A DNA stretch of 64,000 nucleotides, taken from the NCBI RefSeq assembly GCF_009914755.1, contig NC_060929.1; one strand, written 5' to 3'. This DNA comes from the human T2T-CHM13v2.0 reference genome, Homo sapiens. This document shows, piece by piece, positions 9,536 to 53,000 of the stretch (positions are counted from its first letter, which is position 1; every line of letters starts with the position of its first letter). Under the pieces are notes generated by a model. That model saw only the letters and a list, made by a program, of their open reading frames with translations, searched no databases and had not been told where the DNA came from. Made by a program: the position numbers and the translations under genes.

Positions 9536-9536
9536 C

Positions 9537-9769
9537 TTTCATTTTCATTTTCTGATTACCTTAGATTACATAACCCATTCCTTCAACCCTTCTCTATATG
9601 TTGTCAGCATCTTTGTGTCCTTTTATCCACCCATCCATAAAAGAGCCAACACAGAATATCTGTTTTCAAAGCCTGTACCAGGCTGATGCGTTAATGCTGC
9701 CAGAGTAAAACTACATCTGTGGTGACTACTCTCAGTATGTCCTGTAAAATTGCCCAGCAACTTGGTTTT
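9537..9769 (+). repeat. Direct copy of 18979-19215 (L2-derived), sitting at the L1/ERV junction
   Basis: Manual alignment gives about 17 substitutions plus 2 indels over ~233 bp. Confidence 0.95.
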
Positions 9770-9770
9770 G

Positions 9771-11480
9771 TTTGTAACAAGTAATTCTGCTTGTTGGGAG
9801 GACATGCCCAAAGGCAAGGCAAGGGGGCAGCCTCTACAACTCTTCTAGGTGGGAGACAGTGGGTATCATCATGATATCCCTCAATGGCAGCATATCCTGC
9901 TTGTAAAGGAGGGATTTTTTTGATGCGCTGCCATCTATAAACCAATCTGGGGCTCCCTTTATGTGAGTGGAAGTAAGGTGGTGAAACATGGTGAGAGAAC
10001 TTTCAGTGAGATCAGTGTGAGTGTTGGTCGGAGTTCAAAATTGGTGTTGAAGGTAAAAGAGTGATGGGATTATGATGGGAGTATCTATGAGGAGAGATAG
10101 AGTGTTGAAGGAGAGTTGAATGCAGGGCTTGCGTGCAAGAGGATGAGGTGGAGGTGAGTGCCTTATGGCTGAGCATATCTTGTAGACTGTGAGAGGAAAA
10201 TACCTGAAGGGGTTCATAGAATGTGAGTTTTTGTGCCTCAGGGATAATTAGAGAGGTTGTGGCCAAAACTTTTAAGCAAAGGGGCCAGGTTTTGTAAATG
10301 GGATCTAGTTGGTTTGAAAAACATGCCACTGGTTGGAGGGAATCTCCCATGGGTTAGGCTAGTAGTCCAAGGGCCTGATTATAAGAAGTGTGTAAATATA
10401 CATAAAAAGGTCTTAGGGGATTTGGAAGGCCTAAAGTGGGGGCCTGTAATAAAGCATGTTTTAGGTGAGAGAAAGCATGATAAACATCTGGGGTGGGATT
10501 GAGTGGTTGGTCAATATTTCCTTGTGTGTGTTTATAAAGGAGTTTACTGATAATAGAAAAATTTGCTATCCATAAGCAGAAATATCCCACTTATCCAAGG
10601 AAAGAAAGTAAGTCCCTTTTTGTTTTAGGAATTGGGATTTGTTGAATGCCTTGCTTTCATGCAAGTGGAATTTCTTGAGTATTTCGAGTTATGATTAATC
10701 CTAGGTATAAAGCTTTTGGAGGTTAATTGGGCTTTTTTTTTTTTTTTTTTTTTTGGATAACTGGCACCCACATTCAGTGAAAAATTTTAAAAGCCTGGTG
10801 GTATGTTGAATACAACGTTTTAGAGTGGGGCTGCAAAGCAGTCAGTCATTCACATATTGAAGCAAAATGCTAGGTTGTAGAGGTAGATGGAAAAGGTCCA
10901 ACTGAAGTGCATGACCAAAATATTGAGGGCTGTCTCTGAACCCCTCGGGGAGGACAGTCCAGGTAAGTTGTTGGGAATAGCTTGTGCCAGGGTTGGTCCA
11001 AGTGAACCCAAAAGGTTTTGAGAGGAGGGATGTAGAGAGATAGTAAAAAAGGCACCTTTGAGGTCTAATACAGAGAAACAGCTAGTGTTGGAAAGAATTC
11101 ATGATAGGAGGATATAGGGGTTTTGGACAACAGGATAAACAGGAACCATAGCAGAGTTGATTTGTCGCAAATTCTGAACCAGTCTATAGGAGCCATCTGA
11201 TTTTTTAATTGGGAGAATAGGAGTATTGTGGGGAGAATGGGTGGGGATTAAAATATTGGCAGCTGGAAGTTGGGAGATGGGCTTGAGTCTCCATAATCCA
11301 TTAGAGTTGAGGGGAAATCATGGGACCACTATATAGTACTTAGGATCCTTCAGTGAAATTTGAATCTGAATGGCAGGTAGCTATTATGGGGGAGTCGGTG
11401 TTCCATACTACGGGATTTATATGGATGAGGAATTTGGAATTTAAGCCTGTTTGATGTGGAGTGTCTGAGGAGAGGCTCTG
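9771..11480 (-). pseudogene. pol: Degenerate ERV pol (RT, connection, start of RNase H)
   Basis: Fragments LKHALLQAPTLGLPN, PVACFSNQLDP, WPLCLKVLATT, WFIDGS (9927-9944) and SSQQAEL; frameshifts, stops and a long T-run at ~10733-10754. Confidence 0.88.
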
Positions 11481-11483
11481 TTC

Positions 11484-11669
11484 TCAACATAATAAATACG
11501 GGGTTTCTTGTGTGCCTTTCATACTAATGACAGAAACAGATGAATGTTCTAATAGGCCCTGATATTCAGTTAATACCAGTAGGCTCACCCCAGTATCCAA
11601 AAGAAAGGAAATAATCTTACTGGATACCGTCCCAATTACCCTGGGTTCCATCACTAGATATGTGGGCAA
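11484..11669 (-). pseudogene. pro: Retroviral aspartic protease remnant
   Basis: EPRVIGTVSSKIISFLLDTGVS contains the DTG active-site motif. Confidence 0.88.
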
Positions 11670-11736
11670 AGGATCCCAGGCACCCTCAGTCTTCCATTGT
11701 CAGTGACAGCAGTGAAGAGATTTCCTCCTGTGATGG

Positions 11737-13243
11737 TCAGGGGCCTTCATTATGAGCAGCACCCAAACAGGGAAGGTGTCCCCATTGGGGGCAGTCTATT
11801 TTCCAGTGTCCCCAAAGACCACAAGTTGGGCATGGTTTGGTGGGGGCCCAGGGGTTAAGACAAGCCTTTGCCCAGTGTCCAGGGTTGCCACATTGGAAAC
11901 AGACTCCCGGAGAGGTAGAGGAGTTGCCTTTTGGGTTATTGAGAGGCTTTTGTGTAACTGACTTTTGGACAGCAGAGGCAAGCATCTGGTATTTTAAATG
12001 GAGATATTTGTCTTTTTGAATCTTTTGTTCATCTTTGTTGTTAAAGACACAGAACGCTACATTTAGGAGTTCCTGCCAAGATGTCTGGAGACCCTCCTCT
12101 AATTTTTATAATTTTTTTCTGGATGTCTGGGTCACATTGAGAAATTAGAGGTGAACAAAAGTTTGACCTTCACTAGATTCTGGGTCCAAATTGGTATATT
12201 TTAGCATAGCTTCAGTGAGGCATGATAAGAAAAGGGCAGGATTTTCCTGGGGCTTTTATGTAATTTCTCTTTCATAATTAGCTGCCTTATGGACATTTTT
12301 GTCCATGCCCGCAAGGAGACAGGTAATCACGTGGTCTCTTCACCTGATGCTACTGTCTCCCTGTTGGTAAATCCAAACTGAGTCTCTATGGGGGACTGCA
12401 TCATTGGCCACTGAATTTTGTATAGGGGCTTGATTGTGGAATTCATCTGCATGTGTTTCAGCTGAACCCCAGATGCGTTATTTTTCATCAGGAGTGAGGG
12501 TGGAGGTTAGAATTATATAAGTATCATGCCAAGTTAAATTAACAGATTGGGTTATGTGGAGGAATTCTCTGTGATAATGAGAGGGATTCTCAAAGAAAGA
12601 TCCCAGACGCTGTTTGTTCTGTGACAAATCAGACATAGAGAAAGAGACATGAATGTGAGCAACACCTTCAACCCCAGCTACTTCCCAGAGGGAGAATGGC
12701 AGACGTGGTCTGACTGGCTGGAGTAGTTTTTAAATGGGTAATGGGTGAAGGAGGAGGGGTGGGGTTTAGGGTTAAAGGCTTGGGGGCAGGAGTGGCCAAT
12801 GGGGCAGAGGGTTTGGATGGGTGAGGAGCAGATACAGGGGTTTGAGAATACGGAGGGGGTTCACCTTCAAGGTCAAAACAGGTTTCAGAGGAAGGAGAGA
12901 TCCAGGGAGGGTTTCCATTAAGAAGAAGGATTTCATGAGGGGTACAAACTTGACATAGGGAGGGTTGGCATTTAAGGTAGAAGAAAGCCTGAATATAGGG
13001 AACTTCTTGCCATTTGCCATTCTTGGTTATAAAGTTGGCAAGGTCCTTGAGAATTTGAAAGTCAAAGGTGCCAGTTTTGAGCCATCAGCTGTCATTATCT
13101 AATTTGTATTAGGGCCAGGCTGTGTTGCAATAAAAAACTAAATGCTTTGACTTTGGGCTCCCCCAAAAGCCAAGTTTGGTGAGGTTGTAAAGAAGACAGC
13201 CCAGTGGAGAATATGTGGGAATGTGGAATTGTTTGGCACCCAT
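11737..13243 (-). pseudogene. gag: Degenerate gag: MA start MGAKQFHIP..., NC with two CCHC zinc knuckles
   Basis: SPLGCLL...LVFYCNTAWP is gammaretroviral MA-like. Knuckles CFQCGNPGHWAKAC and CPTCGLWGHWKIDC lie in ORF 11737-11985. Confidence 0.9.
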
Positions 13244-13845
13244 GTGGATGGGTAAGAGGCAGCCAAGGGTATCTGGTTTTGTTCTAGGCATCCCCAGAAA
13301 GAAGACCCAGAATCTTCTTTCTGAAGAGGATGGTTAAGCTGAGAAGAAACTGGGTATCCCCAGGATTTCTAGCTTAGCCCCACTGGTCCTCCGAGGATCA
13401 GTACAGCAGACCAGACTTTCTCAGGTACCATTAGAAAGCCAGGGGAAAGCAAATCTTACCAGCATGCTGGATTAGGGTCCAGTGTTGGATGTTCTTGTTG
13501 GAATCAGCAAAGGGCCTCCCGAACTGGAGCTATGCAAGGAAGAGAGAGAAAGAGAGAGAGGAGGGAGGAAGAGGGAACAAGAGATAGAGAGTGAAATACC
13601 TATTGTGGGTGGTTGCTGGTGGATTCCTGAGACCTGAGGGTTTTGAGAGCCCACTGCAGAGTAGCCCCAGCTCAAGCCTCACAGTTCGCTTCAGATTAGT
13701 GATTCATGCAAATCACTCAAAAAGTGAAATGACAGAAAAGATGGGGCGGGTGGCCAGAGACTCAGGATCCAGGAGTTAGCCCGGGATGAGCTGCCACTGC
13801 CCACCACTTCCTGGGTTGCAAGAGATCCTCTACCTTCCACACCTG

Positions 13846-13863
13846 TCCTGGGTTTTGGCACCA
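13846..13863 (-). promoter_or_regulatory. Primer binding site complementary to tRNA-Phe
   Basis: Minus strand reads TGGTGCCAAAACCCAGGA versus the Phe PBS TGGTGCCGAAACCCGGGA (two CpG-type changes), 2 nt from the LTR end. Confidence 0.9.
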
Positions 13864-13865
13864 AA

Positions 13866-14313
13866 TGCAAGAGATGAAGAAAGAAGAAACAAACACAAAA
13901 AGCAGCTCAACAGTCAAAGACAGGCTTACTTTGGAGAATAAACCTGAGAGGAGCTTCTGGCCAATTTTGATCAGGAGCATTCTCTCTTACAGACTAAGGG
14001 TATTTAAAGGTTTAGGGAAGAAGAGCTTATCACAGGTTCAGGATGTTTCTGTGTGGAGGAGCATTTTATTGTATTGTGGGGTTGGAATGTCTCTGGTTGG
14101 AGGGGAGGTTATCTCGGGGCTGCCATGACTTTGGTTGGAGGGGTATTTATCGCAGGGTTGGAATGTTTCTGGTTGGAGGTGTTATTTGTGGTTTATGGTC
14201 ATGCTGACATTAACCATTAGGCTGATGTTTTTTGGATTGCATTTAGGCAGTTTTTAATCAAGGGGAACTTAAAATGAGGGTGTTTGTTCAAGATGGTGAA
14301 GCTCCTGCTGTCA
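13866..14313 (-). mobile_element. 5' LTR, LTR19A/B-like (ERV1)
   Basis: TG...CA ends; minus strand begins TGACAGCAGGAGCTTCACCATCTTGAACAAACACC; adjacent to the PBS. Confidence 0.82.
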
Positions 14314-14435
14314 ATGTCAATAGCTTGAAATTGGCCATTGTTAGAGCATTGACACTACAAAAATGAGCAAATGTTACAGATCAGAGCTTATTTTCCTCTC
14401 AAAGCGCGGGTTTTAATTCTTTACAAGCACACTGC
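14314..14435 (+). mobile_element. Right half of a MER63-like hAT DNA transposon
   Basis: tagcttgaaattggccattg...aaatgttacagatcagagc...ttacaagcacac resembles the MER63 3' half; the left half is not found in the window. Confidence 0.6.
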
Positions 14436-15084
14436 CTTCCTCCAGTGACATCTAGAGAAGATGGTCAGGAGAGGTGAAAATTGTGGAGGGAAAATGAATG
14501 AGACAGTAACTTTGTATTTTATCTTTGTGATTAGAGAATGACTCCCTGCAAAGAAAGGGAGGATGCTTAGTAAACACCTGGTTTGTACATATAAGATAGG
14601 AAAATTTGTTTTGAACTGAAAGCTGTAGTCCAAGTATATATTGTTGCTAGATTACATAGTGCATGCTTCATTTGTACAATCTCTTAATTGATTTTACATC
14701 AACAAATGGGAGGCATATGACACTACAAATATTTTAATTATGTAACTACAGATATTTTACTTATATAACTACATCTTGATCTGTAGCAAGCACATGCAGT
14801 AATTAGATCCAGTTAGATTTTTTCTTTCCCAACTTATTGCCTGAGGTAAATGGCTCTTTGTTAATTTCGAGCCTTTAATATAAATAGAAACACTTTTAAA
14901 AAGTTTTTGAGTGTCTGGGTCTGCAGAAATTTTAAAAAGTACATTGATTCTATTATTGAAAAAGATTTTAATAATCACAAGATCTATTTGCGTACATTGG
15001 AAAGGAATCAAAATTTTAAAAATGGGTATTAAATATGTCACTCCATCAGTTACTAACAGTGATAAAAGTATCCTACCTATTTAT

Positions 15085-15215
15085 ATTTTCTGATCCTCAT
15101 TTTCCTCATTTGTAAAACGGGGTTATGGTACCTTCCTTTTATGATTGTTGTAGGGATTAAATGAAATGACCTCCAATAAAAGTACTATATAGTGTCTGGC
15201 ACTTAATAAATGATT
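15085..15215 (+). mobile_element. MIR SINE
   Basis: Core cctcattttcctcatttgtaaaacgggg...gattaaatga. Confidence 0.75.
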
Positions 15216-15965
15216 GCAATTTTTATATTTTGCTGTCAGGATATAAACAGGTAATCATAATATTTACTGTGGGAACTCTTGGCAGATTTCGTTCCAGAAG
15301 TGCATGCCATATTTATTCCATAAGATTCATTATGTTGTTTTCCCTGTGTAATTCCTTTGCATGTCTTATGCATGTAGGCAGTATATTCAGATACAAGACC
15401 CTGGCATAACTACGGGGTTATTTGCACTTTAAGGCTTTCTGAAAGAAACCTGTCCCATGAGGTTCATTTCCTCAAACACTGTAAAACTGCAAAGGAAGCA
15501 GCTCTTCCTCTCACAGTTCTCAAGTCCTGAAGCAGTATTGCCTTTTATCTTCAGCTGCTTACAAGTCCTCAGAACTCTTGGGGGATAATTGCAATGTAAT
15601 GCTTTACAGCTGCTTGCTAGGTAATTTACTCAGCTGCCACCACCTGAGGAGATTAGCAGGGATTTCCCCTCCTGACACTGGGCCCCTGGAATTTACAGTC
15701 TTTTCCCTTTGTCTTCTGTGGTGGTATCAGTCATCTCCCTCAGGGTTCACTAGGGAGTCAGCCATTTTAAAGTACACAAGTCATTTGCCTGCTGGAGGAA
15801 ATACCAGGGAACCAATCCTAAGCAGGCTCAGGTAGCTTTCAGGGCATAGTCTCTCTTGGATTAGCCAACCCAGCTAAACCTGAAGTATTACCAGGCTCCT
15901 TTGTGTCCATGGGGCCTTAAAGCAAGGCTCTTAACCTTTTCATGTGCCATGGACCCATTTGGAAG

Positions 15966-16410
15966 TGTTATGGGCTGAAATGTATTTCCAATAAAAGATA
16001 AGTTGAAGTCCTAACACCACCACCCCCTTACATTAGAACGTGATCTTATGTGGAAATAAACTCTTCACAGAGGTAAGCAAGTTAAGACAAGGTCATTAGG
16101 GTGTGCCCTAATCCAGTATAACTAGCATTCTTATTTAAAAGGAGGAAATTTGAATGTCAAATGAACATGAAGGCGGAGATCTGAGTGATGTACCTGCAAG
16201 CCAAGGAATGCTAAAGATTGCCAGCAGAACAGTATAAACGGGGAAAGAGGCATGCAACAGATTCTCCCTAAAAGCCCTCAGAAGAAACCAACCCTGCCAA
16301 CACCTTAATCTCAGACTTCTAGTCCCCAGAACTATGGGACAATGAATTTCCCTTCCTTAAGCCATCCAGTTTATAATACTTTGTTAGGACAGCCCTAGAT
16401 AACTAACACA
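15966..16410 (+). mobile_element. MLT1B/C solo LTR
   Basis: tgttatgggctgaa...aactaacaca, with a 5-bp TSD ggaag/ggaaa. Confidence 0.85.
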
Positions 16411-16606
16411 GGAAATCTGTGAAGCCTCTGGATCCCTTCTCAAAATAATTATTTTTAAATGCATAAAATAATGTGCATAAGATAACAAGGGAAGTCAAAT
16501 ATATTAAACTATTATCATTTTTTTCAAAAACGACATTTTGATTCAGTCATATATGTACTCCTATATTAGTATATTAAATAACAAGATCTAGTGGTGGGTC
16601 AAAGAA

Positions 16607-16967
16607 TGTATTAGTCTGTTCTCATGCTGCTAATAAAGACATACCCCAGACTGGGTAATTTATAAAGGAAAGAGGTTTCATGGACTTACAGTTCCACATG
16701 GCTGGGGAGGCCTCACAAACATGGCAGAAGATGAAGGAAGGAAGAGCAAAGGGACTCCTTACATGGTGGGAGGCAAGCCAGTAATTTCAGGGGAACTCTC
16801 CTTTATAAAACCATCAGATCTCATGAAACTTATTCACTACCACGAGAACAGTGTGGGGGAAACCACCTCATGATTCAAGTATCTCCACCTGGCCCTACCC
16901 TTGACATATGGGGACTATTACAAATCAAGTTGAGATTTGGGTGGGGTCACACAGCCAAACCTTATAA
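16607..16967 (-). mobile_element. THE1 solo LTR
   Basis: tgtattagtctgttctcatgctgctaataaagac...acagccaaacc. Confidence 0.88.
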
Positions 16968-17499
16968 AATAAGTACTGTAATTTCAAAATATGGATGAGT
17001 ATAAAGGACATTTTGAGATCTGCAGCAACTTCAGTGTCATATGGAAATATCCATGACTTCTATTCGTCATGGGTACTGCTATTATTACTATTGCTGTTGC
17101 CAATACTCATAATTGAAGGAAATTATAAGTTCCAGTTAGAGATAGTGGAAATTAGGGTGTAACTTATTTCTCATGCAAATTCTTTGACCATCTAAGTTCC
17201 CTCCACAGGCATCTTGGGGGTCCATAGAGTCTAGGCTAAGAAACTCAGCTTTCAAGTCTTCAGTTCACAGAATCTTCCCTATTAAAACCTCTGATCACTT
17301 TGTTTATTCATACATACTCATTTATAACTTGATCTCCAGTCCCAGACTGCATCTTTCAGTATATTTTAGTGGTAAGATTCTTTTCTCTTTGATTTCCAGT
17401 TGATTCCTCAACACTGCCAAGAGGTTATTTTCCTGGGCCTGACATTGACCTGGAAATTGGTTTTGGAGATTACTAGAATTTAATATTTCCTTTGTTGTG

Positions 17500-19520
17500 G
17501 ATTTAGAGCTTCCCACTGAAATTTCCCAAACTAAGCCTCTGCTTCTCCTCTTTGTTTCCCCTTCTTACCTGGAATGTATGAAGTTCAGTTATTACTGGCA
17601 CATATTAGGCTTAGAAATATTCATGTTCACTCATTACACCCACTTGTAAAAATCTGTTCTCAGTTCTTCCCATACCCACATCCTTTCATGTAAACTCAAT
17701 CCACTGCTCTCATCAGTATGAAATGAATCTCCTATGACTTTGGCAAACCCCTACTCCAGCAAGAGCTATATATGAAGTCTCCAAGCTGAAGCAGATCTTG
17801 GTTTCACTATCAAGGTCTCTGGGAACACCTTGACTAGGTCCTTGACATATGTCTACCCAGTAATACAACTTCGTTGCTTTCACTTCCTGGGTATGTTCCA
17901 CTTCTTTATCAGCCTTCATCCAAGATTTTTGATGTTCTCCTCTGAGCACCCTCCTACAGCCTGCATGTGGCCTTGCTGGCTTAACACATTGACTTGCCTT
18001 TAAATTTCACTGTTGAATCCTCTGATTCTCGACTGTCTCTCCAACGTAACACTCAGATACTATATGGTAATTTATTTAAGATAATGTCTTTGGCTGTATC
18101 TCAGGATTTGCTGAATTACTAATTTCAGGATACTTTTGTTTCTATATCCATTGTCTCAGATTCTATTTATACCTTCCAGTTACACCTCAGGCTCTTTGAG
18201 CCGAGGTACTGCCTAAGTAATTCATGTACGACATGTACATAATAAAAACCTCACCTTTGTATTCTACCCACACTCATATCACTAATGGATGTAGTCAATT
18301 CTTGAAAAACTTACCTATACATAGTCTTAGTCTGTTTTATGGTACAACAGCAGAATACCTGAGACTGGGTACTTTATAAAGAACAGAAATTTATTTCTCA
18401 CAGTTCTAGAACTGGAAGTCCAAGACCAAGGCACCAGCGTCAGCTGAGGGCCATCTTGTTGATCCTCACTTGGCAGAAGAGCAAGATAGCATGCTAGCCA
18501 AACACTGCCTGAAGCCGCTTTTAAAAGGGCCTTAATCTTCCTAATAAGGGAGCAACCCTCATGGCCTAATAACCTCTTAAATGCCATCTCATTGGCAACA
18601 CCTGAGTTTTGAATGGGGCACATTCAATCTATAGTGCATGTAATATATACATTTAAAGAAAAGCAATTTGATGTCAGCATTTGCAAACACTGTATGTGAG
18701 ATTTACTGTTCATTTTGATTTATATTGTCTCCGGTGCCATCCAGAATCCTTAAGTAATTTTTAGTCATTCCCTAAAGAGTATGTTTTAAGTTTCCTGGTT
18801 TTGAACTTTTTATATTTGTTCCTGCCCGTATTCCTTTCATGAGAATCAAGAGAATATAATTTTGATCTGTCATCTGTGTCACAGTAGGGGCTCTCTTACT
18901 TAAGTGTGCCCAATATACTAGATCCGTGGCTGCACTGGAACCTTTCATTTTCTTTCTACCAGGCTTCAGCAGTCTTCTTTTCATTTTCATTTTCTGATTA
19001 CCTTAGATTACATAATCCCTTCCTTCAATCCTTCTCTATATATTGTCAACAGCTTTGTTTTTGTCCTTTTATCCACATATCCATAAAAGAGCCAACACAG
19101 AATATCTGTTTTCAAAGCCTGTACCAGCCTGATGCATTAATGCTGCTAGAGTAAAACTACAACTGTGGTGACTACTCTCAAGTTGTCCTATAAAATTGCC
19201 CAGCAATTTGGTTTTTTTCTATTACTTTGGCAGCTCTTTATCTTCTTTGTAGCAACTTTAAAAAATAGTCCAATTTCCTAAAATCTTAGAAATTCTAACT
19301 TCTCATGTCCTGAGAACACTATTTCAAAAAGAAATCAGAAACATCAGCTGAAAACCTGACATCAAACCTATAAATTTATTTGCCTCTGCATCAGGACTGT
19401 CCTATTTAACTTTTGTAAACAATGAGATAAATGAATATCCCATTCATTATTCAAAGATAATCCACATATCTGTGTTTTGGAAGACATTTCTCCCTTAACT
19501 CCTCAGAATTCTTGCTTCAC
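17500..19520 (+). mobile_element. L2 LINE fragment, interrupted by an MLT1; contains the source of the 9537-9769 copy
   Basis: Pyrimidine-rich degenerate L2-like sequence continues on both sides of 18979-19215. Confidence 0.6.
18321..18635 (-). mobile_element. MLT1A-like LTR
   Basis: gtcttagtctgtttt...ataaagaacagaaatttatttctcacagttctaga...ggggcacattcaatctatag. Confidence 0.8.
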
Positions 19521-19531
19521 TGACACATGCA

Positions 19532-21120: not shown

Positions 21121-21355
21121 CAGATTGAACATCCCTTATCCAAAATGCTTGGGACCAGAAGTGTTTTGTATTTCAGCTTTTTTGCAGATTTTTGAATATG
21201 TGCAGATAACAATGGTTGAGCATCTCTAATCTGAAAATCTGAAATCCAAAATACTCCAATGAGCATTTCTTTTGAGTGTCAGGTAGGTGCTCAAATAGTT
21301 TTGGATTTTGAAGCATTTAGGATTTAGGATTTTTGTATTAAGGATGCTCAACTTA
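21121..21355 (+). mobile_element. Tigger4a-like TcMar MITE
   Basis: Terminal inverted repeats cagattgaacatccct / ggatgctcaactta with flanking TA dinucleotides. Confidence 0.8.
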
Positions 21356-22390: not shown

Positions 22391-23513
<1,123 letters not shown>

Positions 23514-25639: not shown

Positions 25640-26154
25640 ACATGAACAGTTAGCTGATACCTCCATGACATCTACCCCTGTTGTATAAATACCTCTACCT
25701 CAACTCATATTATGGCCTAATAAGGGAATAGGTCTGGTTTACACATTGATCAGCTAGATTTGTTTATGCAGCCTGAAACTGTACAGTCGCCACAAACCCA
25801 GAGCAGTTCCTCAAGAAAGACGAGGGGAAGTCTTCACAATGGACAGAGCTTTGAGCAATATACCTGTTCACTAACTTGGTGTGGAGTGGAAATGGTCTGT
25901 GGTAAATATATACCCAGATTCATACGCAATGGCAAATGACTTGGTTAGGGTCCTACAAAGAATGAGATTTAAAAGTTAAAGACAAGAACTGCTCTGGGTG
26001 TGTGGCAACAGTACAGTTTCAGGCTGCATAAACAAATCTAGCTGATCAATGTGTAAACCAGACCTAATCCCTTATTAGGCCATAATACGAGTTGAGGTAG
26101 AGGTATTTACACAACAGGGTAGATGTCATGGGGGTATGGGCTAACTGTTCATGT
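25640..26154. repeat. Inverted repeat, arms 25640-25809 and 25986-26154
   Basis: Manual alignment gives 9 substitutions plus 1 indel over 170 bp, with a 176-bp spacer. Confidence 0.96.
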
Positions 26155-26647
26155 TAAAGACAAGGAGTATGGGAAAGAAGCATGCAGGAGGATCCATAAG
26201 AGTGGGAGCTAAATTTGTTGATACTTGTGTGTCATGTCAATTCCCACCAGAGATCCAAAAGAAGGCTCTGTACTACAGATGACTCATCCAGTAGATACCA
26301 GCTAGCCTCTGACTTTGGTCACTCCAGTATTTGCATAAGGAAGCCTTGGCAGGGAAGGGGGTATGCCCATCTCCAGAATCATGGGCCCCTCTGACTGATG
26401 CTGATCTAGCTGCTGCCACTGCTGAATATCCTGCATATTTACAGTGGAGACCAACACTGAGCCCTGCTTATGGGTGGATCTTGAGGCAGAACAACTAGCC
26501 ACTTAGTGGCAAGTTGTTTGATACAAACAAACACCCTCCACCAGGAAGAGGCAAAGAAATAATATGTGTTCTAGGTATAGATTTTTCTTCTTAACCCACA
26601 GTGCTTCAGCCAGCAGCTGTATTCAAGAGCTCACAGAGTATATTAAG

Positions 26648-27120
26648 TGTATTAGTCAGGGTTCTCTAGAGCGACAGAACTTACATATATATATATATAA
26701 TATATATATATATGGAGTTTATTAAGTATTAACTTAAATGATCATACATTAAGTATTAACTTAAATGATCATGAGGTCCCACAATAGGTTGTCTGCAAGC
26801 CTGAGGAGCAAGGAGAGCCAGTCTGAGACTCAAAACTGAAGAACCTGGGATCCAACGTTCCAGGGCAGGAAGCATCCAGCATGGGAGAAATGGGTAGGAT
26901 GGGAAACTAGGCCCGTCTCTCCTTTTCACGTTTTGCTGCCTGCTTTATGTTCACTGGCAGCTGATTACATGGTGCCCACCCAATTAAGGATGGGTCTGCC
27001 TCTCCCAGCCCACTGACTCAAATGTTAATCTCCTTTGACAACACCCTCACAGACACACCCAAGACCAATACTTTGTATCCTTCAATCCAATCAAGTTGAC
27101 ACGCAGTATGAACCATCACA
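26648..27120 (-). mobile_element. MLT2A1-like solo LTR with internal (TA)n
   Basis: tgtattagtcagggttctctagag...aaccatcaca. Confidence 0.9.
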
Positions 27121-37133: not shown

Positions 37134-39731
37134 TGATATGGTTTGACTGTGTTCCCATCGAAATCTCATTTTGAATTGTAGTTCCCATAATCCCCAATGT
37201 GTCATGGGAGGGACCCAGTGTAAAATAATTGAATCATGGGGCAGGTTTTTCTCATGCTGTTCTCATGAAAGTGAATAAGTCTCATGAGATCTGACAGTTT
37301 CATAAATGGCAGTTCCCCTGCACACGCCCTCTTCCCTGCCACCATGTAAGATGTGCCTTTCCTCCTCCTTCACCTTCTGCCATGTTGGTGAGGACTCCCC
37401 AGCCACGCGGAACTGTGAGTTAATTAAACCTCTTTCTTTTATAAAGTATCCAGTGATGAGATTTGGCTGTGGCCCCACCCAAATCTTAACTTGAATTGTA
37501 ACTCCCACAATTCCGATGTGTTGTGGGAGGGACCTAGTGAGAGGTGGTTGGATTATGGGGGTGGGTCTTTCCCATGCTGTTCTCATGGTGGTGAGTGGGT
37601 CTCATGAGATCTGATGGTTTTAAAAGTGGGTGTTTCCCTGTACAAGCTCTCTTCTCTTGTCTGCTGCCAAGTGAGGCATGCTTTTCACCTTCTGCCATGA
37701 TTGTGAGGCCTCCCTAGCCACACGGAACTGTAAGTCCATTAAACCTCTTTCTTTCATAAATGGCTCACTAAGGTATGTCTTTATCAGCAGCATGAAAACG
37801 AACTAATACTGTAAATTGGTGCCAGTACAGTAGGGCACTGCTGAAAAGATACCCGAAAATGTGGAAATGACTTTGGAACTGGGTATCAGGCAGGAGATAG
37901 AACAGTTTGGAGGGCTCAGAAGGAGACAGGAAAATGAGGGAAAGTTTGGAACTTCCTAGAGACCTGTTGAATAGCTTTGAACAAAATGCTGATAATGATA
38001 TGGACAATGAAATCCAGGCTGAGATGGTCTCAGACAGAGATGAGGAACTTTTTGGGAACTAAAACAAAGGTGACTCTTGTTATGTTTCAGCAAAGAGACT
38101 GGCAGCATTTTGCCCCTGCCCTAGAGATTTGTAACTTTGAACTTGAGAGAGATGATTTAGGGTATCTGGTGGAAGAAATTTCTAAGCAGCAAAGCATTAA
38201 AGAGGTAACTTGGATGCTGTTAAAAGAATTCAGTTTTAAAAGGGAAACAGAACATAAAAGTTTGGAAAATTTGCAGCAGACCATGCAATAGAAAAGTAAA
38301 TCCCATTTTCTGAGAAATTCAAGCCAGCTGCAGAAATTCGCATAAGTAATGAGGAGCCAAAAGTTAATTACCAAGACAATGGGTAAATTGTCTCCAGGGC
38401 ACATCAGAGACCTTTGCAGCAGCCCCTACCATCAAAGGCCCAGAGGTTTAGGAGGAAAAAGTGGTTTTGTGGGCCAGGCCCAGGGTCCCCATGCTGTGTG
38501 CAGCCTAGGGACTTGGTGCCCTGTGTCCCAGCTGCTCCAGCTATTGCTGAAAGGGACCAACGTAGAGCTTAGGTCATCGCTTCAGAGGGTGCAAGCCTCA
38601 AGTATTGGCAACTTCCACGTGTTGTTGAGCCTGCCAGTGCACAGAAGTCAAGAATTGGGATTTGGGAACCTCCACCTATATTTCAGAGGATGTATGGAAA
38701 TGCCTGGATGTTCTAGGCAGAAGTTTGCTACAGGGGTGGGGCTCTCATGGAGAGCCTCTGCTGGTCAGTGCAGAAGGAAAATGTGGAGGCAGAGCCCCCA
38801 TGCAGCGTCCCCACTGGGGCACTGCCTAGTGGAACTGTGAGAAGAGGGCCACCATCCTCCAAACCCCAGAATGATAGACCCATCAACAGCTTGCACTGTG
38901 CACTTGGAAGGGCCACAGACACTCAACGTCAGCCCATGAAAGCAGCCGGGAGGGAGGCTATACCCTGCAAAGCCACAGGGGTGGAGCTGCCCTAGACCAT
39001 GGGAAGCCACCTCTTGCATTAGTGTGAGCTGGATGTGAGATATGGAGTCAAAGGAGATCATTTTGGAGCTTAAAGATTTGACTTCCCTGCTGGATTTCAG
39101 ACTTGCATGGGGCCTGTTAGTCCCTCTGTTTTGGCCAATTTCTCCCTTTGGAATGGCTATCTAGAAAGTAACTAACTTGCTTTTGATTTTACAGGCTCAT
39201 AGGCAGAAGGGACTTGCCTTGTCTCAGATGAGACTTTGGACTGTGGACTTTTGAGTTAATGCTGAAATGAGTTAAGACTTTCAGGGACTGTTGGGAAGGC
39301 ATGATTGGTTTTGAAATGTGAGGACATGAGATTTGGGAGGGGCCAGGGATGGAATGATGTGGTTTGGCTGAATCCTCACCGAAATCTCATCTTGAATTAT
39401 AACTCCCACAATTCCCATGTGTTGTGGGAGACACCTGGTGGGAGGTAGTTGGATCATGGGGCAGGCCCTTCCTGTGTTGTTCCCATGGTGGTGAGTGGGT
39501 CTCATGAGATTTGATGGTTTTAAAAATGGGAGTTTCCCTGCACTCTTCTCTTGTCTGTAAATGGAACTGTAATGGAGCTTCTCTTGTCTGTAATGGAACT
39601 GTAAATCCATTAAACCTCTTTCTTTCATAAATTGCCCAGTCTCAGGTATATCTTTATCAGCAGCATGAAAATGGACTAATACACCCAGTCTCACATATGT
39701 CCTTAAACCAGCATGAGAATGGACTAATATA
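37134..39731 (+). mobile_element. THE1 solo LTR (37134-37453 plus 39684-39731) split by a THE1 provirus
   Basis: The LTR stops at ...aagtatccag and resumes cccagtctca...ggactaatata. Confidence 0.88.
37454..39683 (+). mobile_element. Full-length THE1 element: LTR 37454-37810, internal 37811-39354, LTR 39355-39683
   Basis: Two LTRs flank a THE1 internal region (gtaaattggt... FELERDDLGYLVEEISKQQS); TSD tccag/cccag. Confidence 0.93.
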
Positions 39732-40147: not shown

Positions 40148-42611
40148 CTACAAAACAATAGGAGTTCTATAAATGGATGCTGAAATATAAAAATGCTGAA
40201 GTTCCTTCACTCAAGCATTGGCTTCCAAACTAGATGTTGAGTAATTCCTATTACCCTGGCTTGGGTCCTAATTTTGTGTCTGAATCTCCAGATTTTCTAA
40301 TCATTTTTTGAGCTAATTGATATTCAGCTCAAAATCCTCATGTAGCTCCAATAGTTAGTTTCTATTGCAACCCAGTACTCTGACTGATATATCTTATAAA
40401 GTACCAGTCAAATCAGAAAATGCCAATAAAACTTGCTGCTATTCAGTAGTCATTACATCTCAGGAGATTTACTGAAGTTCAAATAACCAAATGGATATGA
40501 CAGTTACTTACTTTCCAACATTTTCCTTCATCTCATCCCATCCCTCCACTGGGCATATATTTGGCTTCCAAAGCTCCACATGCCCATATTCTTTCCTCCT
40601 TCACAGATGAATTAAAAATGCTCATTTCTCCACAAAGCTATTTCTGAACGTTTCTCTTTTTCTTTGAACTTTCATAACTCTTTAACTAACATTTATATAG
40701 AACATTTCCCATGCTACTTTGTGGGGCAATTATTCATGCACATAATTCCTGAGGATAGGAATTATAAAGTATGTACATGAATTTCAAAAATATACCTATG
40801 GGACACTTCATAAATGTGAAAATAAAGTGATTGTGTTTTTTTAAATTAACCTGCACATGAAAATCATCAGATTTACTGTAAATCACAAAAGCCATCCCTA
40901 AAAAACATTGCAAAATTCCAATACACAGATTGTATCATCAGTTCTTCAGTACACAGGTTGTATCACCAGTTCTTTCAGGCCGGATGATAGAGTAAAAAGG
41001 GAATAAAGGGCTTAAAAGTGAATATGTGGGTTCAAATTTTAATTCATCACCTACTCAAGACTACCACTGAGTATTAGCTTTTATCTCTGAAAATTAGATC
41101 ATATATAGGGTTATCATCATTTTGTTGGAAAGTGTAAAAAAAAGAAGTGTAGCTTGTCTAGAAGACAGTAGAGAAAGAGTAAATGTTAGCTAATTCCCTT
41201 CAATATTTTCGAAAGTATAATAATATTTACAAAAGGCCAATTTGATCAAATAAAAAGCACCAAGTTATAGCATTATGGTGGGACTTAGATATTATTTAGC
41301 CCAAGGATGTATTAGTCAGAACTCCTTGCTTTGTTTCAATAGAACCAGATGAAGAAAATGTGTAAAAAGAAAAAAAAAGTAGAATCCATTTACTCATTTA
41401 ACAGATATTCACAAAGCACCTCTGTAGGCCAGGGACTGTGTGAGACTTCGGAATACCACAGTAGTAAGACAAACATGTTCTTTGTGTTAAGGTAAGTTAT
41501 AGCCCAACTCTCAAAGTAAATCAAAGTCAGGGTACAGGCAGGCCTCAGCAATTGCTTAGAATTAGATTTGAAAGACATTTTGGTCCTTGATGGCATGTCC
41601 TATTTTTCATCTCTTCTTGTGTATTTTTTCATTCTTAAGTCTGCAGATCAAATTTTCCATTTTCCAAAACACACCATACTACTTATAATTCTGCAGTTTA
41701 TAAACTACTATCTACAGATTCCCTCTCTCAATCTCCCCTTGTAGCAGAATCTGGTTGGCTAAGCTGGAGTCAGGAATGTTTTGCTCCAATCACCCATGAA
41801 AATGGGAAGCAGAGTTATGGTACACAATTTAGAATAGACTCAGTCCTGTGGATTTTGGATTGAAAAAGAAAGGAGTTCTTTGTGGTATGAGCAGGTACAA
41901 CCACATAGCTTTTATGCAAAGTATTTGAACTTCAAAATAGTAATTAACTTTCTGAAGGTCATGCAATTTGGCAATGGTGAAGCCCAGGAGGAAACTCACA
42001 TCGTTTAAATCCTAATTCAGTCCTCTTTCAACTTTGTTAGCATTGGAACAAGAAGTACCATCTCTGTTGGACATTTTCAGCTACCAATTAACACTAGCCT
42101 AACTTGATAGTAGGTGCTGAATGAGATACTAAATAATTGTAAAACATAGTACACATTCAGATGTAACTAATGTTTGTCAGGCACTGTGGTTTGATTCCTT
42201 CACATACATTTTATCTAGGAGCTTCCAATATGTTTGGTGGTATTCAGGGCCACACTATGTAAATGCAAGGGATAATGTAATTAAAAGTGAATATTTATAG
42301 TGCTTACTTTACTCTTGGAAGAAAATTATAAAAGGAATCACCAGGAACCAGAATAATTGCAATAAGCTTTAAGGAAAAGGTAAAATTTGACCTGGGTATT
42401 GAAGAGTGGCTAAGTTTAGTGCAGTGATAGAGGAGAATGAGGGGGTTATAGGCAGGGAATATTTCTGAGCAATGGTGCAGAGGTGAGAATGGGTGTATTT
42501 GGGGGGCTATGGTGAAGGGAAATTTGAAGGATTATAACTGAACAAAGCAGAAACATTCTGGTGAAAATTTTTGACTTAAGAATTCCAGAATTTAAAATTA
42601 TAAAATAGGTA

Positions 42612-42661
42612 ACACACACACACACACACACACACAAGTACACACAAGCATGCACACACAC
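42612..42661. repeat. (CA)n microsatellite, interrupted
   Basis: Read directly from the sequence. Confidence 0.9.
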
Positions 42662-45800: not shown

Positions 45801-45804
45801 TCTA

Positions 45805-46125: not shown

Positions 46126-48797
46126 TAGATGCTTATTAAATTTAGACATGAGGGACATGTAACTCTAAGAGAGCCATTTCTTTATAAATGGTTGCACAAA
46201 CCTCAAAAAGAAGAAGAAAAGGAAAAAGAAGACAAACAAGCTTTAGGGAATGTATTAGTATCAGGGTCCTGGTATTTTCTTATTAAGTGACCTTAGTAAA
46301 TACTGTGTTTCGAGTAAGTAAATAACACAAATATTGTTTGAATTTAGAAAAAGTAATTATCACTGCACTTTTTAGAAAAGTATGAAGTCTGCCATTATTT
46401 TAGAAAAAGTACATTCTTAAACTGGTAAACATAAATGGAATTCTGGAGTTAGCTTGGTTCTTAGGGAGTTAAAAAGACCCACATGGTGTTCAAAACGTTC
46501 TTAAAATATTTTTAAGAAAATGTGCTTTTGTTCTCACTGTGCTAAAGTACAAAAGCTCTCCTGAGGCACACCCTGGGCTTACCAGCTCAAGGCACTCTCT
46601 TAGGCAGTTAAAAAAAGAAAACCCCTACCTTCTCCTTGCTACATGAGCTGATTTCACAAGCCCTTTACACGCTTTATTTACTATTCATTTTCATCTTTGA
46701 GAGAGAAACTTGAAATATTTAATCACAGGATATTATTCTTTTAAAATGCTTGTTAAGCCAAGGATTTGGTAACTGGCAGAAAAAAAAGTGGCTACAACAG
46801 TCAGTTTAATTATTATCCCTGAAATTGCATTTTAAAATATTTTAATAATTAAAGAAGTTTTTGGAAAACCAAGCAAAGAACTAAGAGAATAAAGAGGCTC
46901 AAAAAATCCAAAGTAAGCCTGTCCGGTTGCATGTGTGTACACACACTTAATTCTTACATAAAGCCCAACAACATTAATCATGTCTGTAAAATGATAACCA
47001 CAACGACAGCTCTCGCTCTGCAGTCAGCCATACAAGGAAGCAGTTTCCAGCTATAACCCTCTACCATGAGCAAATAACTGACGAGCAGCGGTCCTTTTGT
47101 CAGATCCTGACAACTGAATCAATAAAAAGACACAGCAAAAGTTCAATCAGAACAGACACCACTAATACGACTGGCCTTTGGGGACCCACAGAAGCGTGGA
47201 ACTGCTTTTCCATGTTAATTTCTCTTCACTATCCCTTGGGGTTATCACCTTCTCTGGCCCCTGTTAATTAAAAACTGCCTCCTACTAAAGTTCCTTGGCA
47301 GGCATTTCCCTCGTGTCAGCCTATTCTGCTGACTGCTAAGAGAGGAAGAAATGAAGGAGGGAAGTGTTATGAAGCTGAGAATGTCACGATGCCAAAATCC
47401 TGCTCCTGTTCTCCCAGAAGACTGTGTGTATAATCAAATTTTTTATAGACTCATTTATAATAGTGGACTAACAAAAAATATCTAAGAACAATTAAAGATA
47501 ATACTATATCAAAGTCAAACATTAGTTGATAGCTATGTAGGCAAATCAGTAAGAGGTAGACAGTCTTGTCATACTATATTTTGGTTTAGCCTTATTTTGG
47601 AATTTGTTGAATTTAAGGAATTTTAATTACACATATATGTTTCTATTTGGTTACTGAAGATAACACTCACATTTTTGCACTCTTTCTCTTCCCATAACAG
47701 AGACAAACTTACTCCTACCTCTTTGCCAATTCCCAATTAACATCAAGATTGACCTTAAGGACCAGGTTACTTTTTATCTGTGTAAAAGCCTATAAGAAGA
47801 AATTTTTAGATTTAAAAAATGGCAGCTAGGTCCTTTTAACTATGTCAATGACAAACATGAATTATCTATAAGGCTAGGTGGTCACATTATTCCAAATTGA
47901 ATATCTGATTAAACATGCTTTTATTTTATACTAAAAATATAGTAATACATTTACACAATACAGAACTCCATACAGTAAAAAATAAAAGTCTCCTGGTACA
48001 TCAAGATTCTCCCAATCCTCTTGCCATCATTAATTATTACCAGCTTTTAGATTTTTGTTTACATTTATAAGCACACACATATAAATATATAATATTGTCT
48101 CATTACTTTTTTTAAAGTTTAAAAAAAGTAAAAATATTTTAATAACTGAAGAGGATTCCAGAATATGAATGAGTTGAAATTAATACAAATCATTCCCAAA
48201 GAAGAAATATTTAGTTCTGTCTAAACTTTTGCTCAAAAAATTTTGCTATGGTGACCAGCATTTCACAAATGCCTTTAAAACGTGTTTTAAAAATGATTTA
48301 TGTACGTGGTAAACATTCAAATAGATTTTCAGTGTGGACAATCCCTGTCTCTCTCAACAGGGAAAGTCATTCTCAGCAGTTTCTTCTGAATTTTTCAAGG
48401 GAGGCTGTGCTTTCAAGTGTGTATTTGAATAAATGCATTATATATATATGTATATAAATGTAGAAACACATATACACACATACACACATATACACATACA
48501 TTTTTTGATGCACAAGTGATACCATACACACTGTTCTACAAACTTGCTTCGTTTTATTTATATGGGGAAAAATGTTACAAATCAGCCCATATGGATTTCC
48601 TGTATTCATATTTATGTAACTTTGAAGGGGTAATATATTCATTGCTCAAATACATATAAGAAAAAATATAAAATGTTTTTGTGTGTAATATATAAGAATG
48701 TATTATGTTTTTATTTCTTTTAATAATTTTTAATATTTTTATGTTTTTTATTTTTTATTTTTAAATTTTTTAGTCATTACTTATATAACACAACCAT

Positions 48798-49156
48798 AAC
48801 ATATATCTTTTTTATTATTATACTTTTGTTATCATACTTTTTTATTATTATACTTTTTATTATTACACCAAGATTATGTCTGGAAACTGCTTCCTTGCAT
48901 GGCTGACTGCAGAGCAAGAGCTGTTGTTGTGGTTATCATTTAACAGACATGATGAATGTTGTTGGGCTTTATGTAAGAATTATTATATTTTATATTTATA
49001 CTTTTATTATTATACTTTATTATTATATATTATACTTTAATATAATACTTTTATTATTATACTTTAAGTTCTAGGGTACAGGTGAACAACATGCAGGTTT
49101 GTTACACAGGTATACATATGTCATGTTGCTTTGCTGCACCCAACATACATCTTTTT
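48798..49156 (-). mobile_element. Composite L1PA 3'-end insertion with reiterated tail and captured local DNA
   Basis: TSD AACATA(T/C)ATCTTTTT; L1PA 3' end at 49049-49142; inverted copy of 46948-47050 at 48880-48982. Confidence 0.9.
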
Positions 49157-50069
49157 TTTTTACTACTTGCCTTTTTGACTTAATATGTTCTGGAACTATG
49201 CATATATAGACTGATTTTATTCTGTTGAATTGCTAAGTAGTATTTCCTAATATGTATTCACTAAAATTCACAATAATTCACTGAATGAACATGTGATTTT
49301 CCTTTTATTTTTCATATTACAAAGAATAATTCAATAAAATATTTATAGATATATATAATATATATATTATATATATATATCTTTACATAAAATACCAAGT
49401 ATTTTTTCCAGTTACTTCCAAATCCAAATTTGGAAGGCAGACATTGACATATATTAAAATTTAAAAAATACTGCACAACTATTATTCAGAAAGGCCTTAA
49501 CAATTCTCCTCACACTAGCAATGTAAAGGTCACCCATTTCTTCATACTTTCTCCAACAATGGATATTATTATTCATTTAAATATTCTGCTTGTTGTAATT
49601 TGCAGGACTTCACTTAGTACCTGGGCTATTTAATCTGTTATATAATCTCAGCTGTATAATCCCTTGCAGATTTATAAACATCTGTTTTTCTATTAATATC
49701 TAGAATAAATCTCATTCTCCACCTCCTACCCAATAACACAAGATATAATAAGCCAACACTTCACAATCTTCCTCCAGTATTACTTGCAACCCATCACTAT
49801 TCCAGAATTATCTTGGATTTTTATTCCAAATTGTTATGGTCTTTATTACTTATAAATATTTTCTATGCTTTTAAATTCACCATTGTTCTTTGACTTATCT
49901 TCCCTAAATTATTAGTATTATTTTGTTGAAGTATTATTGATAATATTTTCAGAAAGAGGTTATGACTGGTAAGTTTACTGAGTTTCTAGATGTTCAAAAG
50001 ATGCTTTAATCTCACAATTGAGTTTTTTTTTATATTAGAGATAGAGTATAGATTAAAATACCTTTCTTG

Positions 50070-53000
50070 GAGTGACACTAGCAAGATTGTAGACTTGGAA
50101 GCTCCAAGCTCTCACTGCCATCATTGAAACATCAAGTAAATAACTATAGATGGACTACAGTAGCTCTATGGGAGCTTAGGAAACTAGTCAAGGATCTACA
50201 AAACCTAAGTGAACACCCAATCAGGAAAAAGTTACAGTCAAAATGGTAGAACATTTTATGATGGTTTTAGTCATGCTTACTCCATTCCTTCCCTGGAGCA
50301 GCATGGCCTGTCAGAAGGAACTTGTTTTTAACATTCTGGCCTTTTGTGGGTTGCCTGAGGGACTGATTTCTGTATCATCTGACTCACAGCTGAGATAAAA
50401 TGTTGGGCATAGTTTGCACTGAAGCCAGAGAATACTGTAGCAGGTGCTGTGGCATAGGAAAACTGCAGGAAGACTGCAGACCTACAGATGCCTGAAGGCA
50501 AGAGATTATAGGCAGAATAATATGATAGAATATATAAGGCTTCAAGAAGTAGGGTGAGACTTTTTGAAAAATTAAGAGATGTAAAGACAGCCCTGTAAAA
50601 GGGACAATTGAGAAAAAGTACACACATGGCATCAGAAAATTTGCATGCCCAGAAAAGGCTTGAGAAGACTTTAAGTCTCCATGTTAGACTAATTAATTAA
50701 GATCTTCCTCCCTTTCCATAGAACCAGTCTGCAAAAACTGGGTGAGTCCCTCTCAACACCCACAAAGCCCCAATTTTAAACAAAAGATCACAGGAATACC
50801 AGGAAACATGGAAACATGGCCCATTAAAGGAAAAAAAATAAATCTATAAATACAACCCTAATGAAACACAGGACTCTAACTTGACAAATTATTTAAAATG
50901 ATTGTCCTAAATATACTCATCGAACTAAAAGAGAACATAGACAACTAAGCAAAATTAGAAAAACAATTTATAAATGAAATAGGAAGATCAACAAAGAGAG
51001 AAATTATGAAAAAGATCAAAACAGGCAATTTGAAACTAAAAAATACAATAACTGAATTTAAAATTGTACTTAGAAGGATTCAACTTTGGGCTTAATTAGG
51101 CAGAAGAATCAATGGACTTGAGGAAAAATTATTTGAAATTATCAAGTCCAAGGAGCAAAATAACAATAATAAAGAATATAAACAGAGCCTGAGCGACTTA
51201 TGGAACACTGTCAAGCAGACCAATAGATATATTACAAGAATTCCAGAGAGAGAAGACAGAAAGATAGAGGCAGAGAGTTTATTTGATAAAATAATGGCTG
51301 AAACCCTCCAAAATTTGAGAAAAATAATCATTATACAAAAAAAAAAGCTCGTCAAATCCCAAGTAGGATAAACTGAAAGAGACTTACAACAACACACATT
51401 ATAATCAAACTTTCAAAACTCAAGCACAAAGAGAATCTTGGAAGAAACAAGAAAAAAGAAATTCATCACATAGAAGGAAGCTTTTATATGATTTTCAGTG
51501 GATTTTTTAGCAGAAACATTACCAGTCAGAAGGCAGTGGAATTACATATTTAATGTGCTAAAAGAAAAAATGTTGGCAACTAAGAACACTATAGCTGACA
51601 AACTTGTTCTTCAGAAATGAAGAAGAATGTAAGGCATTCCTAGATAAACAAAATTTGCGGGAGTTTGTTACTACTAGACCTTCCCTGCAAGAAATGTTGA
51701 AGGGAATTCTTCAAGTTGAAATGATGCTAGACAATAACTGGAACCCATATGAAAATATAAATTTTTCTGGTGAAAATAGATATTTGGGAAAATATAGAAA
51801 TGTGGATTATTATAATTTGGGTTCATAGTCTATTTTTAATTCTTTTATAGAATTTAAAAGAGAAAATCATTTTAAAAAACTACAGTGTTAATGAGTACAT
51901 AATATGTAAAGATGTAATTTGTGACATCAAAATATAAAGGGAGCAGAGCTGTAAAGAAATAGTAGAGTTTCGGATTGAAATCAAAGTTTAAAACAGTTAT
52001 AACTTTAAGCTGTTTTATGTAATCCCCATGATAAACACAAAGAAAACATCTGTAGAATATACACAAAAGAAAATGAGAATGGAGTCACATTTTGTCAGCA
52101 TTAAAAAATCAACTAAACAAAAAGGAAAGCTGTAAGGGAGGAAATGAGGGACAAACAAAGTCAAAAAGCAAGAAAAACAATGATCAAAATGGTGGTAGTC
52201 TTTGTCTCTATCAGTAAATATGTTAAATAAGAATGGAGTAAACTCCTCAATCAGAAAATGTAGATTGGCTGAATGAATGATAAAACAGAATTTCCCTATG
52301 TGCTATCTACAAGAGACTCATTTTAGATCTAAGATATACATAGATTGAAATTGAAAGCCTTGAAAAAGATATTTCTGTGCAAATAGTAACCAAAATAGAA
52401 CATGGGATGGCTACCTTAATGTCAAACAAAATATGTTTTAGCTCAAAAACTATTACAGGAGACGAAGAAGGACATTGTATAATGATAAAAGGGTCAATTT
52501 TCCAAGAAGATGTAACATTTATAAACACAGATACACTAAACATAAGAACTTCTAAATATATGCAGCAAACATTCACTGAATTGATGGGAGAAATAGAAAG
52601 ATCTATAATAATAGTAGGAGACTTCAACACCTCACTTTCAATAATGAATAGTACAACCAGACAGATGATCAATAAAGGAATAGAGAACTTAACACTAGAA
52701 AATAATCGGATCTAACTGACATATACTGAATACTCCACCCATCAACAGCAGAATATGCATTTTTCTCAAACGTGTATTTTGCTGTTGATGGATGGAGTGT
52801 TAGAACATTTTCCAGAATAGACTATATGTTGTGCTACAAAACAAGTGTTAATAAATGTAAAAAGATTGCAATTATACATTTTTTTCTGATCACAATGAAA
52901 TGAAACTAGAAATCAGTAGCAATTACAAATTAAAAGATCCACAAATATGTGGAAATTATACAACCCATTCTTAGACAACCAATCAGTTAAAAAAAATCAT

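What the first reader, a model, noticed from the sequence alone, without database searches (positions are those of the whole stretch)
9537..52801. Cluster of at least five locally templated insertions within ~43 kb
The events at 9537, 25986, 39578, 48880 and 52768 all copy DNA from within 0.03-9.4 kb. Three are inverted, two are flanked by TSD-like repeats, and their divergences differ (about 5-9% for the long ones), implying recurrent events over primate evolution. Hypothesis: a germline-fragile locus repeatedly repaired by template-switching synthesis (Pol theta, MMBIR, or L1 ORF2p using local nascent RNA). The background rate is unknown to me, so enrichment is not established.
Basis: inference. 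Interest (0 to 1): 0.7.

Follow-up and report, generated by a model that had tools for sequence, protein, structure and literature searches.

The report
Old DNA-repair scars, mildly clustered
Five short stretches in this human gene-poor region are copies of nearby DNA, likely left by separate, ordinary break-repair or replication errors in ancestral primate germ cells; control DNA holds the same kind of copy, and the roughly threefold excess here is not statistically established.

Summary
All five local copies are real; three are inverted, two have flanking duplications. They differ in kind. E1 (236 nt, donor 9.2 kb away) fills a deletion joining a truncated L1 to a truncated provirus. E2 (169 nt) and E5 (~33 nt) are fold-back copies. 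E3 is an iterated junction insert in an LTR deletion. E4 (109 nt) sits inside an L1 tail. These are known classes: repair-mediated duplications (Pace 2009), short-range template switches, Pol theta-type templated insertions.

Enrichment is not established.

Verdict: ordinary scars at upper-tail density; small-scale clustering deserves a genome-wide test.

The parts
9537..9772 (+). E1 copy: 236-nt direct copy of 18979-19218 at a deletion junction; a few filler or ambiguous bases at each end; no target-site duplication
18979..19218 (+). E1 donor (two-copy sequence in the genome)
8010..9533 (-). Old L1 3' portion left of E1 (start approximate); relatives 76-82% identical; most matches end at 9514-9538
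9778..14313 (-). Degraded provirus right of E1 (one LTR at ~13866-14313, gag zinc knuckle, RT/RNase H fragment), cut off at 9778; two relatives carry a second LTR 3.4-3.7 kb beyond this point
25986..26154 (-). E2 copy: 169-nt inverted copy of 25640-25809, 176 nt away; 1-nt and 2-nt junction microhomology
25640..25809 (+). E2 donor
25975..26164 (.). E2 flanking 12-nt direct repeat (25975-25986 and 26153-26164, 12/12)
39558..39594 (+). E3: 37 nt built from repeats of both flanks, standing where the element's other LTR (37454-37809) has 60 nt
48874..48982 (-). E4 copy: 109-nt inverted copy of 46948-47056, 1.8 kb away; 7-nt filler on the left, 4-nt microhomology on the right
46948..47056 (+). E4 donor
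48798..49157 (-). E4 host: 94-nt L1 3' end (49049-49142) with repeated terminal units on both sides of the copy, all inside a 16-nt duplication (48798-48813 and 49142-49157, 15/16)
52768..52801 (-). E5 copy: ~33-nt fold-back copy of 52729-52762 inside an old L1; net gain 24 nt against 3 of 5 L1 relatives (27 nt in one, one misaligned)
52729..52762 (+). E5 donor arm

Best explanation
The five stretches are copies of nearby DNA, likely left by separate germline break-repair or replication template-switch events of known kinds, and likely fall together here as an upper-tail fluctuation of a background of about 1.4 to 3 such events per 100 kb. Shown: the copies, their donors, direction and junctions. 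Inferred per event: E1, a deletion (at least ~4 kb of the provirus is missing) bridged by synthesis on a template 9.2 kb away (strand-annealing or microhomology-mediated template switching). E2, the growing strand switched to the opposite-sense template, copied 169 nt backwards and rejoined 12 nt upstream, giving the flanking repeat. E3, a 60-nt deletion closed after several aborted rounds of flank copying (Pol theta-like). E5, a short fold-back switch replacing about 9 nt. E4, either template jumps during L1 insertion or a later break in the AT-rich tail. Inferred date for E1, E2, E4: roughly the catarrhine stem.
For: Same pipeline on 280 kb of controls finds the same classes: a 95-nt copy with a 25-nt flanking duplication, a 62-nt copy next to a 50-nt fold-back pair, 184-nt and 219-nt older copies, an E3-like iterated junction. 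The four long ones are two-copy genome-wide. Counts: strict 3 vs 4, P=0.125; loose 5 vs 8, P=0.077; >=90 nt and >=78% 3 vs 4, P=0.125; unlinked controls only P=0.25-0.40. Extrapolated, ~1,600-5,000 of ~48,700 windows would hold as many. Short tandem duplications are not enriched: 4 in 64 kb vs 17 in 280 kb. The five events differ in anatomy. Pace et al. describe this class, with the same junction types and no trend to cluster.
Against: The window is 2-7 times denser than controls under every cut; two post-hoc cuts (>=90 nt and >=85%; inverted only) give 3 vs 2, P=0.048, and 6 vs 9 gives P=0.045. Controls are small, and 200 of 280 kb flank the window. Pace's density (0.62 per Mb of repeat DNA) is far below mine; taken at face value two events in 64 kb would have P=8e-4, though it predicts 0.17 events in my controls, where five pairs of >=50 nt lie 50-5000 nt apart. 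Pace's table shows 5 close pairs vs 0.83 expected.
Confidence: 0.68

Rival explanations
1. A real local hotspot: a region of tens of kb broke or stalled forks repeatedly in the primate germline, and such hotspots exist genome-wide.
For: Ratio about 3 against all controls, 3-5 against the flanks. Among 219 catarrhine-specific events in Pace's Table S1, 5 pairs lie within 50 kb against 0.83 expected (P=0.002; without chr5, which suggested the test, 4 vs 0.80, P=0.009); no clear excess beyond 50 kb (ratios 0.6-1.3); close pairs are not alike in divergence, as recurrence predicts. E5 (17.6%, CI 6.8-34.5) may be older than the rest. The window lies in an 892-kb predicted lncRNA (hub annotation).
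Against: No pre-specified test at this locus reaches P<0.05, and the window was selected as notable. The 50-kb cut-off was chosen after seeing a pair. If neighbours share a lineage label through gaps in the outgroup assembly, expectation rises to 3.1 (P=0.21). On chr5, all classes, 2 vs 0.42 (P=0.066). With the uniformly detected events no 43-kb span held more than 3 (E3 is not in that set). Replication timing, fragile-site and break maps were not available.
Confidence: 0.22
2. E1, E2 and E4 arose together in one burst of error-prone synthesis (a small complex rearrangement) that became fixed.
For: Their divergences are indistinguishable (7.6, 5.3, 6.4%; P=0.65; pooled 6.6%) and they span 39 kb.
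Against: Three draws from Pace's catarrhine class span <=2.3 points 18% of the time, so similar ages are unremarkable. The events do not share donors or junctions, and E4 sits in an L1 insertion with its own duplication.
Confidence: 0.06
3. L1 reverse transcriptase copying local nascent RNA made most of the insertions.
For: E4 lies between repeated L1 terminal units inside a 16-nt duplication; the L1 fragment's best relatives are 94-96% identical, compatible with the copy's age. E1 abuts an L1. Templated inserts at new L1 insertions are reported.
Against: E1 has no duplication (best score 23, within the null range 16-24), is closer to its donor (91%) than the L1 (76-82%) or provirus (83-88%) are to relatives, and joins two truncated elements. 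E2, E3, E5 have no poly(A). In E4 the first strand would be the + strand, so the template is the + strand, opposite to the annotated lncRNA.
Confidence: 0.04

Closest known systems
Repair-mediated duplications (Pace et al. 2009, PMC2671141); 'doublets' of Thomas et al. 2004 (known only through Pace's discussion)
   Same: 50-600 nt two-copy inserts with a nearby donor; microhomology, filler, deletion or flanking duplication at junctions; E1, E2, E4 divergences fall inside the interquartile range of the catarrhine class (4.4-8.5%).
   Different: E1's donor is 9.2 kb away (their cut-off is 5 kb) and it joins two different elements; E4 lies in an L1 tail, whereas none of their 39 inspected proximal cases had a poly(A/T) tract. 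None of the 125 chr5 entries in their Table S1 matches these events in size, spacing or approximate place (assembly conversion recalled).
Short-range template switch mutations, four-point model (Walker et al. 2021, PMC7954356); germline MMB-TI (PMC8421209)
   Same: E5 and E2 are reverse-complement copies of adjacent DNA with short microhomology and net length gain.
   Different: E2's 169 nt exceeds the longest gold-standard event (128 nt); no outgroup alignment here.
Pol theta templated insertions, TINS (Carvajal-Garcia et al. 2020, PMC7165422)
   Same: E3: deletion closed by direct repeats of both flanks, built in more than one round.
   Different: 37 nt in total, above the 3-30 nt quoted; enzyme dependence cannot be read from sequence.
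Templated insertions at L1 integration sites (bioRxiv 2024.08.27.596794)
   Same: E4: a <250-nt non-L1 genomic segment inside an L1 insertion.
   Different: Their templates typically lie within 15 bp of the site; E4's is 1.8 kb away and sits in the tail between repeated terminal units.

Membership tests
Repair-mediated duplication (Pace 2009) | Insert >=50 nt found at only one other place in the genome | tested here: met
   E1, E2, E4: two places each. E3 and E5 are too short and are not filed here.
Repair-mediated duplication (Pace 2009) | Donor 50-5000 nt from the insert | tested here: met
   E2 176 nt, E4 1817 nt
Repair-mediated duplication (Pace 2009) | Donor within 5 kb, for E1 | tested here: not met
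   9206 nt: E1 works like one but falls in their 'distant' group
Repair-mediated duplication (Pace 2009) | Microhomology, filler, deletion or flanking duplication at junctions | tested here: met
Repair-mediated duplication (Pace 2009) | No poly(A/T) tract at the insert | tested here: inconclusive
   Met for E1 and E2; E4 lies within an L1 tail
Repair-mediated duplication (Pace 2009) | Empty site in an outgroup species | not testable with these tools
   No primate relatives held
Short-range template switch (four-point model) | Reverse-complement copy of DNA within tens to hundreds of nt, replacing or adding bases | tested here: met
   E5: net +24 nt against 3 of 5 L1 relatives; E2: 12-nt flanking repeat
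Short-range template switch (four-point model) | Significant pair-HMM score against an ancestral sequence | not testable with these tools
   Needs orthologues
Pol theta TINS | Deletion junction with insert repeating flanking DNA | tested here: met
   E3 against the element's other LTR
Pol theta TINS | Dependence on POLQ | not testable with these tools
   Fixed ancient event
L1 target-primed insertion with captured DNA | Target-site duplication and tail enclosing the captured DNA, E4 | tested here: met
   15/16-nt duplication around tail, copy and L1 fragment
L1 target-primed insertion with captured DNA | Captured DNA arrived together with the L1, E4 | tested here: inconclusive
   Ages compatible but 94 and 109 nt give little power
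L1 target-primed insertion with captured DNA | Target-site duplication, E1 | tested here: not met
Germline-fragile locus | Event density above matched background | tested here: inconclusive
   Ratio ~3, P=0.045-0.40 by cut
Germline-fragile locus | Overlap with fragile-site, late-replication or meiotic break maps | not testable with these tools
   No such tracks held

The most novel reading that the evidence does not exclude
Locally templated repair insertions cluster at a scale below 50 kb throughout primate genomes, marking small germline hotspots that were hit repeatedly over millions of years; this window is one, and the background density is more than tenfold above the published catalogue.
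Probability: 0.25. Interest if true: 0.55.

Novelty: new member of a known kind. Interest (0 to 1): 0.25.

Why it matters
As five uncatalogued scars in non-coding DNA it matters little. If the small-scale clustering holds genome-wide, fossil templated insertions would give a map of where the primate germline broke or stalled forks repeatedly, testable against replication-timing and meiotic break maps, and would revise the published statement that these duplications do not cluster. E4 is also a candidate for L1 capturing DNA from 1.8 kb away inside its tail.

Tried and rejected
E1 as an L1 5'-end capture: rejected (no duplication, younger than both neighbours). E1 as a giant duplication around a whole provirus spanning 9773-18978: rejected, the element ends at ~14313 and has one LTR. 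The 48-nt 'tandem repeat' at 39635-39729 as a sixth event: rejected, it is the remnant of an outer LTR split by a nested element. Rows dropped before counting: 58 of 76 pairs as same-family repeats by a third-copy score; of the 18 left, three by inspection (window 14079, an array inside the LTR; control c2 5632, L1-like fragments; control c5 -88895, judged transposon ends; family labels recalled), and two control pairs merged with neighbours as one event each. E3 is not found by the BLAST pipeline, so the uniform loose count of 5 is E1, E2, E4, E5 and a 25-nt pair at 2880/6324. A window hairpin at 21215-21352 was set aside as transposon-like (recalled). No relative covering E2's insertion site was found, and Pfam gave nothing for six frames around it, so its host's family (ERVL-like) is recalled only. 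Thomas et al. 2004 could not be read. Searches for a later report of clustering showed none; this covers only the open library.
Full report
Observation. Self-BLAST of the window and pairwise alignments confirm all five events. E1 9537-9772 is a direct copy of 18979-19218 (18 substitutions in 236); E2 25986-26154 an inverted copy of 25640-25809 (9 in 169); E4 48874-48982 an inverted copy of 46948-47056 (7 in 109); E5 52768-52801 an inverted copy of 52729-52762 (6 in 34); E3 39578-39604 repeats 39545-39572 (0 in 27, one gap). E1, E2 and E4 match only those two places genome-wide. Five shuffled windows gave no short-range hit.

Anatomy. E1: a minus-strand L1 ends at about 9533 (relatives 76-82%). 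A minus-strand degraded provirus starts at 9778 (relatives 83-88%; most of the 17 other matches begin there; four checked at base level all start at 9778), with gag zinc-knuckle and RT/RNase H fragments and one LTR at ~13866-14313; two relatives have a second LTR 3.4-3.7 kb beyond this point. No target-site duplication was found. So E1 is a deletion junction with a captured fragment, inferred younger than both neighbours. E2 is flanked by a perfect 12-nt repeat with 1- and 2-nt microhomology. E3: against the other LTR of the same element, 60 nt are replaced by 37 nt made of pieces of both flanks (read). E4 lies among repeated L1 terminal units, left of a 94-nt L1 3' end, all inside a 15/16-nt duplication; 7-nt filler on one side, 4-nt microhomology on the other. 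The L1 fragment's best relatives are 94-96% identical (40 of 1,488 candidates scored), so copy and L1 may be coeval. If the copy was made during L1 insertion, its template was the + strand, opposite to the annotated lncRNA (inference from L1 orientation). E5 adds 24 nt net against 3 of 5 L1 relatives.

Ages. Divergences of E1, E2, E4 are 7.6, 5.3 and 6.4% and do not differ (P=0.65; with E5 P=0.09). They lie inside the interquartile range (4.4-8.5%) of 219 catarrhine-specific events in Pace's table; three draws from that set are this close 18% of the time.

Background. Controls were 200 kb of flanks and four unlinked 20-kb blocks (GC 27-40% per 10 kb against 36% in the window). One pipeline gave 76 pairs, 58 removed as family pairs, 18 inspected (controls). 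Loose: 5 vs 8, P=0.077; 6 vs 9 with E3 and one more control, P=0.045. >=90 nt and >=85%, or inverted only: 3 vs 2, P=0.048; >=90 nt and >=78%: 3 vs 4, P=0.125. Unlinked only: ratio about 2, P=0.25-0.40. Short blocks lose distant donors at their edges, which undercounts controls. The four long control events are two-copy genome-wide. Short tandem duplications: 4 vs 17. Extrapolating, about 1,600-5,000 of 48,700 windows would hold as many events, so a window picked as notable is not exceptional. The controls are small and a two- to threefold local excess is not excluded.

Comparison with print. Pace et al. 2009 (PMC2671141; main text parts 1-4 of 8 and passages; Table S1: all 125 chr5 places and 240 of 289 'HCOR' places) report 824 human duplications within 5 kb, mean 162 nt, 0.62 per Mb of repeat DNA, with these junction types and no trend to cluster. 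None of their chr5 rows matches these events. Their density predicts 0.17 events in my controls, where five pairs of >=50 nt lie 50-5000 nt apart, so their list is a strict minimum; taken literally it would make this window rare (P=8e-4 for two). Walker et al. (PMC7954356, passages): 4,017 short-range switches in great apes, longest gold-standard copy 128 nt. PMC8421209 (passages): about 100 germline templated insertions >=25 nt per person. PMC7165422 (passages): Pol theta inserts of 3-30 nt, longer ones from several rounds. bioRxiv 2024.08.27.596794 (passages): 22 templated insertions at L1 sites, typically <250 nt from within 15 bp. PMC13174262 (abstract, passages, sections 10 and 13): L1 chimeras with RNAs at the 5' end; no local-DNA class in what I saw. 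PMC5110952: search listing only.

Close pairs are no more alike in divergence than random pairs (chromosome lengths recalled; cut-off chosen after seeing one pair). Searches showed no report of such clustering in the open library.

Verdict. Real copies of known kinds, most likely independent (0.68); a true small hotspot 0.22; one burst 0.06; L1 copying of local RNA as the common cause 0.04. Interest 0.25.

Noticed in passing
window 37134-39729: Nested LTR elements: an outer LTR (37134-37453, remnant 39684-39729) is split by a full element (37454-39683) with a 4/5-nt flanking duplication; this explains the apparent 48-nt tandem repeat.
   Followed up: yes
window 26721-26772 and 40919-40974: Further short tandem duplications (27-nt period, perfect; 28-nt period), a class as common in controls.
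   Followed up: partly
window 2880-2904 / 6324-6348: 25-nt direct pair, 92%, 3.4 kb apart; possibly another small local copy.
   Followed up: no
L004:2594-2655, 3860-3909, 8629-8748: Control event: a 62-nt direct copy and a 50-nt fold-back pair that appear to have been separated later by an L1 insertion with a ~15-nt duplication.
   Followed up: partly
L005:5692-5829 / 6317-6411: Control event: 95-nt copy (96%) flanked by a 25-nt duplication, a direct-orientation twin of E2.
   Followed up: yes
L021:6366-6674: A 219-nt local copy (80%) is bracketed by a 40-nt inverted repeat.
   Followed up: no
L009:396-3708: About 3.3 kb of very AT-rich repetitive sequence with many direct and inverted self-matches (tile GC 27%).
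   Followed up: no
PMC2671141 Table S1, <5 kb sheet: Five pairs of catarrhine-specific duplications within 50 kb (chr5, chr7, chr8 twice, chr11) against 0.83 expected.
   Followed up: partly
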